A stretch of DNA of 64,000 nucleotides, from IMG/VR virus record IMGVR_UViG_3300047369_000650, positions 1-64,000 of that record. The stretch is one strand, 5' to 3'. A program made the position numbers and the translations under genes. Origin of the DNA: a virus. The notes beneath the pieces were generated by a model. The model saw nothing but the letters and a program-made list of their open reading frames with translations. It searched no databases and was not told the origin of the DNA. This document shows positions 16,284-17,617 of this stretch, in pieces (position 1 is the first letter of the stretch; each line of letters opens with the position of its first letter).

Positions 16284-16350
16284 AATGCATTTTAGGGGTT
16301 TACATTTCATTTAAAATATACTATATTAGTAGTATAAAGAGAATCGGAAG
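16284..16350 (+). promoter_or_regulatory. Early promoter with downstream GANTC element (copy 1)
   Basis: AATGCATTTTAGGGGTTTACA-N17-TATATT-N13-GAATCGGAAG. Confidence 0.8.
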
Positions 16351-16747: not shown

Positions 16748-16812
16748 TGCATTTTAGGGGTTTACAAGCTATTAAAAATATGCTATGTTAGTAATGTAAA
16801 AAGAATCGGAAA
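16746..16812 (+). promoter_or_regulatory. Early promoter with downstream GANTC element (copy 2)
   Basis: Same 21-mer AATGCATTTTAGGGGTTTACA-N17-TATGTT-N13-GAATCGGAAA. Confidence 0.8.
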
Positions 16813-16821
16813 GAATATAAA

Positions 16822-17124
16822 ATGACTATTGCTAAAACACAGAATGACCGTCTTGCTCTTATCAAAGAAATCGCAGAGCGTCGTAAAGCAGAAAAGAAAG
16901 CTGAACGTGCTCGTCAGATTAAAATGTATGAAATTAAAGAGAAAGCCAAAAAAGCTCGGTTTGCAATGTTACAAGCACGTAAGAAACGCGAAGACCCTCT
17001 TGCAACACTAAATGTAAAAGAAGGTGAAAATATTAATCAATATACCGATCAATCAAAGTATGCTAAAAAATATTATGGAGAAACTCTATATGAAACAACA
17101 AGATATGATAACGAATGGGATTAA
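16822..17124 (+). CDS. Basic helical early protein
   Basis: ORF behind promoter; Lys/Arg/Glu-rich. Confidence 0.7.
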   Translation: MTIAKTQNDRLALIKEIAERRKAEKKAERARQIKMYEIKEKAKKARFAMLQARKKREDPLATLNVKEGENINQYTDQSKYAKKYYGETLYETTRYDNEWD

Positions 17125-17129
17125 TAATT

Positions 17130-17326
17130 AAGAGTCTAAGACTCTTTTACTCAACGTCCGTGCAGAGAGAACCGGGCTTGAAAGCAACGTCTCACGAGAA
17201 TAATTCGCCTGTGAAATATCAGTGTCGTGAAAACGTGGAGATGCTAGTTTCAGTCAAATTAGAGCGGCAATGTCAATAAGGCCGTGCAAGGAGACTGGAG
17301 ATACTAGGGGTGTTGAGTAAAGGAGT
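17130..17326 (+). ncRNA. Structured cis-regulatory RNA candidate upstream of mazG
   Basis: 17141-17159 pairs without interruption with 17308-17326 (19 bp, 3 G-U); several internal helices; more GC-rich than flanks; no ORF. Confidence 0.7.
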
Positions 17327-17332
17327 TTTAAT

Positions 17333-17617
17333 ATGAAAGATAGTCCAATTAATAAACTTCAGCAGCTAATGATTATTACTGCAGAAGAATGTGGAGAACT
17401 TACTCAGAGATGTAGTAAGATTATTCGTAAATATAAAAAGTTTTCTGAAATAGAAGACGATCAAAAAAACAAACTTCTTGAAGAAGTTGGTGATGTTTAT
17501 TGTATGATTGATTTAATGTGTGAGCATAATGTATTAGATTGGAAACATATCTATGCTAGAAGCTCTGCTAAAAAAGAAAAACTTAAAAAGTGGAGTACTT
17601 TAATAGATGGTAAATGA
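17333..17617 (+). CDS. mazG: MazG-like nucleotide pyrophosphohydrolase
   Basis: ITAEECGEL...LLEEVGDV. Confidence 0.85.
   Translation: MKDSPINKLQQLMIITAEECGELTQRCSKIIRKYKKFSEIEDDQKNKLLEEVGDVYCMIDLMCEHNVLDWKHIYARSSAKKEKLKKWSTLIDGK

What the first reader, a model, noticed from the sequence alone, without database searches (positions are those of the whole stretch)
17130..17335. ~190 nt structured RNA that sequesters the mazG Shine-Dalgarno through mutually exclusive helices
Seen: ACTCTTTTACTCAACGTCC (17141-59) forms an unbroken 19 bp helix (3 G-U) with GGGTGTTGAGTAAAGGAGT (17308-26), which contains the mazG SD (AAGGAG 17320-25). A competing hairpin AAGAGTC-TAA-GACTCTT (17130-46), just after the upstream stop, uses exactly the bases that pair with the SD. 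The 148 nt interior has further helices (CTAGT-TTCAGTC/GACTGGA-gat-ACTAG; GCGGC/GCCGT; ACGT..TCACGA/TCGTGA..ACGT) and a repeated CCGTGCA...GAGA. Known: MazG proteins hydrolyse nucleotides and are linked to (p)ppGpp and antiviral-signal control; phage-associated orphan motifs such as manA RNA are of similar size. Inference: a riboswitch-like or translation-coupled switch for a nucleotide-hydrolysing gene, or a processed ncRNA.
Basis: partly seen in the sequence, partly recalled or inferred. Interest (0 to 1): 0.85.

Follow-up and report, generated by a model that had tools for sequence, protein, structure and literature searches.

The report
Self-pairing modular RNA of marine phages
This is a gene for a folded non-coding RNA from an uncatalogued family in marine phages: two copies probably dock through a self-complementary loop, and its overlap with the next gene's ribosome site is eased by a small early-forming hairpin, not by sensing a nucleotide.

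Summary
The helices are real (closing helix 23 bp, 17137-159/17308-330). The element belongs to a structured ncRNA family of uncultured marine T4-like phages (142 matches, about 100 distinct; no Rfam match; none in cultured phages or, by exact pattern, in GTDB). Covariation is strong. The constant core is the closing helix plus a small hairpin whose loop carries a self-complementary 4-mer in one register (CCGG here; GGCC, GATC, GTAC, GCGC, and wobble GGCT, TCGG elsewhere), the signature of an intermolecular kissing loop as in OLE RNA. Two other arms are optional and swappable. It is not a mazG riboswitch: mazG follows directly in 6 of 105 contexts; others precede tRNAs, other genes or no gene start. 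The competing hairpin is selected: present in 18/25 distinct flanks where the helix covers a Shine-Dalgarno, against 1/56 otherwise (swap control 7/56). It forms first in folding calculations but loses by 7.7 kcal/mol at equilibrium, which fits an MS2-like kinetic window for ribosome loading. Expression and dimerisation are untested. The scan found this family, and the kissing-loop reading, before on other genomes.

The parts
16761..16789 (+). Sigma-70-type early promoter candidate (GTTTACA ... TATGTT), a motif repeated genome-wide; likely drives ORF-RNA-mazG as one transcript
   Evidence: no + strand terminator between it and mazG; function inferred
16822..17124 (+). Upstream 100-aa hypothetical ORF, the commonest upstream neighbour of the RNA
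17130..17146 (+). P0: competing 7-bp hairpin that captures the anti-SD strand
17137..17159 (+). P1 5' strand (closing helix; ACU at the base and CGUC at the top nearly invariant, middle covaries)
17160..17188 (+). P2 hairpin, constant core of the family; self-complementary CCGG at 17172-75 (predicted kissing loop)
17189..17242 (+). P3 optional arm with T-loop-like words AGAAUA (17197-202), UGAAAUAU (17212-19), UGAAA (17228-32); also found outside this RNA
17244..17307 (+). P4 optional arm with near-invariant 12-nt loop AAYGUCAAUAAG (17269-80)
17308..17330 (+). P1 3' strand; contains the Shine-Dalgarno AAGGAG (17320-25) of the next gene
17333..17617 (+). 94-aa MazG-like NTP pyrophosphohydrolase; a local neighbour, not a family-wide partner
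   Evidence: PHROG 4856 E 2e-17; Pfam MazG below cut-off

Best explanation
A stand-alone structured non-coding RNA of about 190 nt, co-transcribed in an early operon. Its fixed core is a 19-24 bp closing helix and a hairpin that pairs with the same hairpin of a second copy through a palindromic loop, giving a homodimer or higher oligomer that displays exchangeable arms (a T-loop-rich arm and an arm with a conserved 12-nt loop), most likely as a scaffold or decoy for host RNA-binding factors. Where the RNA's 3' end overlaps the next gene's ribosome binding site, as here, a short 5' hairpin folds first and holds the anti-SD strand, so ribosomes can load on mazG during a co-transcriptional window before the full helix zips. 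Shown: structure, covariation, modularity, palindrome switching, hairpin-SD association, folding energies. Inferred: expression, processing, dimerisation, the kinetic window. Speculative: the scaffold or decoy role.
For: 97% of cells paired, 17 pairs changed on both sides, 0/500 shuffles, slid controls about 40%. G-U pairs in P1 point to the transcribed strand (351 G-U against 12 A-C, partly by construction). All 20 loop types seen hold a self-complementary 4-mer in one register: five Watson-Crick palindromes and two wobble ones; neighbouring registers give 0-2. The same signature (GGCC/GAUC/AGCU) marks the cryo-EM-resolved intermolecular kissing loop of OLE (PMC12286853). The two tandem pairs carry incompatible palindromes (L087 GGCC+CCGG; L123 GATC+CCGG). 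P3 and P4 can each or both be missing, down to 91 nt. Contexts of 105: tRNA 10, SD inside P1 37, SD outside 24, other 34. Hairpin in 18/25 against 1/56 flanks, swap control 7/56; for one and the same downstream gene 16/17 with SD inside P1, 3/15 with SD outside. Hairpin probability about 1 until nt 17320, 0.03 at 17326; cost of opening the SD falls from 10.9 to 7.3 kcal/mol.
Against: The kiss is only 4-6 bp, and P2 hairpins move as whole cassettes, so independent origins number about 5-7, not dozens. The 5' search pattern required P2, although the P3- and P4-based patterns also returned only P2-bearing full RNAs. Many hairpin flanks share ancestry (about 5-6 independent contexts), and several SD-covering copies have no hairpin. 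Folding was computed at equilibrium on prefixes, not simulated kinetically. No partner was identified.
Confidence: 0.66

Rival explanations
1. Ligand-sensing riboswitch for mazG (NTP, ppGpp, cyclic nucleotides).
For: SD is inside P1 and an alternative hairpin exists; multi-arm interior with conserved loops.
Against: mazG next in 6/105 contexts; absent from RNA-bearing records of 86-91% completeness; copies abut tRNAs; arms are dispensable; a 7.7 kcal/mol gap and a 23-bp helix are large for a ligand switch; no Rfam riboswitch match.
Confidence: 0.04
2. General cis-acting translation or processing cassette: P1 is an RNase III substrate or a timer that tunes whichever gene follows, and the interior is secondary.
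For: P1 length (19-24 bp) and its terminal bases are conserved; 61/105 copies precede an ORF; the hairpin association is strong.
Against: Does not explain palindrome switching or the conserved P4 loop; the commonest downstream gene occurs with SD inside or outside P1; 44/105 have no adjacent gene start. No RNase III match in this record, though a host enzyme would do.
Confidence: 0.14
3. Selfish mobile element (retro-mobilised RNA or MITE-like DNA), with the kissing loop acting like a retroviral dimerisation signal.
For: Variable neighbours, long terminal inverted repeat, two tandem pairs.
Against: One locus per record in 28 records; no reverse transcriptase in 30 records; neighbours come from one shared pool of small early genes.
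Confidence: 0.07
4. Translation-coupled switch set by ribosomes terminating on the upstream ORF.
For: An upstream stop lies within 20 nt of P1 in most SD-covering copies.
Against: Offsets run from -19 to -1, so a terminating ribosome would melt only P0's left arm in some copies and cover the P1 strand in others; the spacing is not conserved.
Confidence: 0.09

Closest known systems
OLE RNA L9.3 kissing loop; GOLLD and ROOL nanocage RNAs (PMC12286853)
   Same: Orphan structured ncRNA; palindromic loop tetranucleotide that switches between palindromes; GOLLD and ROOL are phage-borne and often near tRNAs.
   Different: 90-260 nt rather than several hundred; no Rfam match; one evident symmetric loop; optional, swappable arms.
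manA RNA motif (RF01745; oligomers in bioRxiv 10.64898/2026.07.01.735769)
   Same: About 190 nt, in marine phages, function unknown, self-assembles through kissing loops.
   Different: No match to the manA model; manA uses loop-loop contacts between different loops (L5-L7', L8-L9'), not one self-complementary loop.
MS2/Levivirus maturation-gene 5' UTR (PMC4615214)
   Same: Long-range helix closes a cloverleaf over the SD; a metastable 5' hairpin holds the anti-SD strand and allows transient translation.
   Different: DNA phage transcript; the enclosed RNA is conserved independently of any downstream gene; the hairpin arose in several unrelated flanks.
[quoted passage not shown]
   Same: P3 arm has AGAAUA/UGAAUA and UGAAAUAY words like E. 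coli L1-stalk AGGAUA and UGAAAUAC; one variant has a hairpin inserted between them.
   Different: Three candidate T-loops, different stem topology, first base not fixed; arm not enriched next to tRNAs (3/10).
Phage T4 rnaC and rnaD stable RNAs
   Same: Small RNAs of unknown function in a T4-like tRNA cluster.
   Different: No homology (best 2.2 bits); rnaC is tRNA-like and neither has a long closing helix.
PeSL regulatory cassettes of T4-type phages (from memory, not tested)
   Same: Stem-loop plus ribosome binding site in shuffled early regions.
   Different: PeSLs are multi-copy and contain a promoter; this is single-copy with RNA-level covariation.

Membership tests
Any Rfam 15 family (manA, GOLLD, ROOL, OLE, 6S, RNase P, Y RNA, riboswitches) | Covariance-model score at the gathering threshold | tested here: not met
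   No hit in the window, nothing credible to E 10, none in homologous loci
Riboswitch | Consistent position 5' of functionally related genes | tested here: not met
   mazG next in 6/105; tRNA, other genes or no gene start elsewhere
Riboswitch | Alternative pairing of the SD | tested here: met
   In about a third of copies only
Riboswitch | Ligand binding | not testable with these tools
   Needs in-line probing
Self-assembling orphan ncRNAs (OLE/ROOL/GOLLD/manA kind) | Covarying self-complementary loop | tested here: met
   Five Watson-Crick and two wobble palindromes in one register
Self-assembling orphan ncRNAs (OLE/ROOL/GOLLD/manA kind) | Protein-free oligomer in vitro; abundant transcript | not testable with these tools
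MS2-type kinetic translational control | Metastable 5' hairpin exclusive with an SD-covering long-range helix | tested here: met
MS2-type kinetic translational control | Translation depends on folding delay | not testable with these tools
   Needs coupled versus pre-folded reporter assays
Double T-loop tRNA-elbow module | AG..A and UG..A T-loops placed to interlock | tested here: inconclusive
   Words present and conserved, geometry unproven
Bacterial Y RNA | YrlA model match and linked Ro60/TROVE gene | tested here: not met
   (record 86% complete)
T4 rnaC/rnaD | Sequence or structure homology | tested here: not met
Retro-mobile element | Dispersed copies and a reverse transcriptase | tested here: not met
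   most records are fragments

The most novel reading that the evidence does not exclude
These phages keep an RNA construction kit: a self-dimerising chassis with orthogonal palindromic addresses, onto which functional arms (a tRNA-elbow-binding T-loop arm, a conserved 12-nt bait loop) are swapped by recombination and also used in other phage RNAs, acting as multivalent RNA decoys against host RNA-binding or tRNA-targeting defences.
Probability: 0.2. Interest if true: 0.9.

Novelty: new variant of a known kind. Interest (0 to 1): 0.68.

Why it matters
Natural RNA-only oligomers are known from a handful of families, mostly large and none with a settled function. This family is small, comes with natural deletion and arm-swap variants and with several mutually incompatible palindromes, so dimerisation and its specificity can be tested directly with short transcripts. 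It also shows a repeated evolutionary fix, an MS2-like early hairpin, for packing a stable RNA against a ribosome binding site. It warns against calling riboswitches from an SD-covering helix in one genome.

Tried and rejected
Rfam at gathering and E-value thresholds on the window and 16+7 loci: nothing. Cultured phage records: no match for the long or short form. GTDB exact patterns for the P4 loop and P3 arm: none; divergent cellular homologues are not excluded. Literature search for the sequence words: irrelevant hits only. T4 rnaC/rnaD homology rejected. TROVE, RT and RNase III not found in the phage record. The commonest downstream protein (68 aa, MRTVHYVG) has no Pfam, PHROG or Atlas assignment and is absent from this record, so it is not an obligate partner. 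Restriction or methylation sites as the reason for the palindromes: wobble variants and switching at one position argue against. The P4 loop reads TTGACA/G on the minus strand but has no -10 box at 16-18 nt, so an antisense promoter was rejected by inspection. The RNA tree was too poorly resolved to count switches. The loose hairpin criterion was partly tautological (swap and shuffle controls about 30%), so the strict one is quoted.

Full report
Setting. The window is the first 64 kb of a 177.5-kb virus record, 86% complete. It is T4-like (gp32 58% identical to the nearest cultured phage) and carries five tRNAs and a permuted tmRNA with tag ANDNFAPSGYALAA; relatives' tmRNAs match Rfam alpha_tmRNA, so an alphaproteobacterial host is inferred. 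The element lies between a 100-aa ORF (16822-17124) and a 94-aa MazG-like ORF (17333-17617; PHROG 4856), downstream of an early-promoter motif at 16761-89.

Observation. The closing helix is as described and runs to 23 bp; the competing hairpin 17130-46 uses the anti-SD bases. Fold z is -3.0. Rfam has no match.

Family. Of 80 loci fetched through the MazG protein only 10 showed the RNA upstream, four of them with two other genes in between. DNA patterns on separate parts of the RNA gave many more; a covariance model gave 142 matches, about 100 distinct. None was found in cultured phages or by exact pattern in GTDB. On 43 sequences 97.1% of cells pair, 17 of 56 pairs change on both sides, no shuffle reaches this, and slid structures give about 40%; RNAalifold finds nearly the same structure. 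The structure was drawn from these sequences, so the control values lean high, but P1 shows several pair types per position. Each record has one locus, apart from two tandem pairs.

Anatomy. P1 is 19-24 bp with fixed ends and a freely covarying middle. P2 follows in every member. P3 is a T-loop-rich arm in 36 of 105, otherwise a short hairpin, another insert or nothing. P4 with the loop AAYGUCAAUAAG is present in 83 of 105 and keeps this loop on different stems. The smallest member is P1 plus P2, 91 nt. The P3 arm also occurs alone before a terminator and inside other unannotated phage RNAs, so the arms are exchangeable modules.

The key signal. The P2 loop varies, but the four bases in one register are always self-complementary: GGCC, GATC, CCGG, GTAC, GCGC, and the G-U-compatible GGCT and TCGG (in one search the ACCG/ATCG rows are CCGG/TCGG shifted by the regular expression, and two rows are probably non-members that I did not check). 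Neighbouring registers give 0-2 palindromes. Adjacent bases cannot pair within one loop, so this points to pairing between two molecules. Kretsch et al. used the same argument for OLE L9.3, where GGCC switches to GAUC or AGCU and cryo-EM shows the intermolecular kiss (PMC12286853). Both tandem pairs carry incompatible palindromes, as expected if paralogues avoid mixed dimers, but n = 2. P2 hairpins travel as cassettes, so the independent events are the 5-7 distinct words.

The mazG question. In 105 distinct contexts the RNA is 3-7 nt before a tRNA in 10, covers an SD in 37, precedes a gene whose SD lies outside P1 in 24, and has no adjacent gene start in 34. mazG is next in 6; the usual neighbour is a 68-aa unknown, absent from this record. 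RNA-bearing records of 86-91% completeness have no match to this mazG, and in a complete one it is 16 kb away. The link to mazG is therefore most simply a product of small-gene loss in a shuffled early region (inference from gene order).

The competing hairpin is nonetheless selected. By a strict criterion it occurs in 18 of 25 distinct flanks when P1 covers an SD with a start codon, in 1 of 56 otherwise, and in 7 of 56 when those flanks are joined to an anti-SD strand. Its left arm comes from at least five different upstream sequences, with compensated forms (GAGUC/GACUC, GAGUU/AACUC, AGUAG/CUACU). With the same downstream gene it is present in 16 of 17 copies with the SD inside P1 and 3 of 15 with it outside. 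In the window the full helix wins by 7.7 kcal/mol, but the hairpin dominates every prefix up to the SD and lowers the cost of opening the SD from 10.9 to 7.3 kcal/mol (family median 11.7 to 8.5). This is the arrangement of the MS2 maturation leader, where a metastable hairpin delays an SD-covering helix (PMC4615214). I read it as a rescue of translation forced by the overlap, not as a sensor. Upstream stops sit at -19 to -1, too variable for a conserved coupling switch.

Mechanism, graded. Shown by sequence comparison: fold, core, modularity, palindrome switching, hairpin-SD association. Inferred: transcription from the early promoter, release of the RNA (RNase P at a following tRNA; RNase III or E elsewhere), homodimer formation (about 0.75), kinetic window (about 0.65). 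Speculative: that the arms are baits. P3 has AGAAUA/UGAAUA and UGAAAUAY, like the E. coli L1-stalk T-loops (PMC3664808), but geometry is unproven and the arm is not enriched beside tRNAs. The P4 loop is unexplained.

Known systems and novelty. It works like the self-assembling orphan RNAs (OLE, GOLLD, ROOL, manA) and, locally, like the MS2 leader, but is a member of none by model score. T4 rnaC/rnaD share only location. It could be an unnamed entry in the catalogue of PMC10690425, which I could not search. Two earlier follow-ups of this scan reached the same family and kissing-loop reading on other genomes; my reading was noted before that look-up, and their agreement is not independent evidence. 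Expression could not be checked.

Verdict. Real, uncatalogued, phage-restricted structured RNA family with a strong and cheaply testable dimerisation signature; the mazG riboswitch reading is not supported; the alternative hairpin is real and selected. Interest 0.68.

Noticed in passing
G000:C1 about 96200-96380 (outside the window, after tRNA-Met): A second unannotated structured RNA candidate before a terminator; it resembles the 3' part of the larger RNAs in L083, L095 and L112 (shared GGGGAAAGCC and GTACCC words).
   Followed up: no
L112:300-1400 (-), L093:14230-14590, L083, L095, L340: 350-400 nt non-coding stretches right after sigma-70 promoters, built from shared structured modules in different orders, including the P3 arm; no Rfam match.
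   Followed up: partly
L117:3537-3582: The P3 arm alone, directly before an intrinsic terminator, near a tmRNA gene.
   Followed up: no
G000:C1 160143-160639: Permuted (two-piece) tmRNA of alphaproteobacterial type; an AT-rich stretch that looks like a short ORF lies inside it.
   Followed up: partly
window 16298-16350, 16760-16810, 18797-18850 and about ten other sites: Early promoters share TTTTAGGGGTTTAC and a downstream AGAATCGG word.
   Followed up: no
L088:3083-3286 and 43 other loci: A 68-aa unknown protein family (MRTVHYVG / MLHFVGF) is the commonest gene after the RNA; no Pfam, PHROG or Atlas assignment; one weak match in a Pseudanabaena phage.
   Followed up: partly
window 17269-17280: The conserved P4 loop holds (U/C)GUCAA, which resembles a tRNA-Asp anticodon loop and is the reverse complement of a -35 box; neither reading was supported.
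   Followed up: partly
G000:C1 about 140420-140585: A 25-bp unbroken helix (G-U allowed) and a long inner hairpin, apparently in coding sequence.
   Followed up: no
L120:13447-13677: A GC-rich hairpin with a GGCC loop is inserted into the P3 arm, a possible second kissing site.
   Followed up: no
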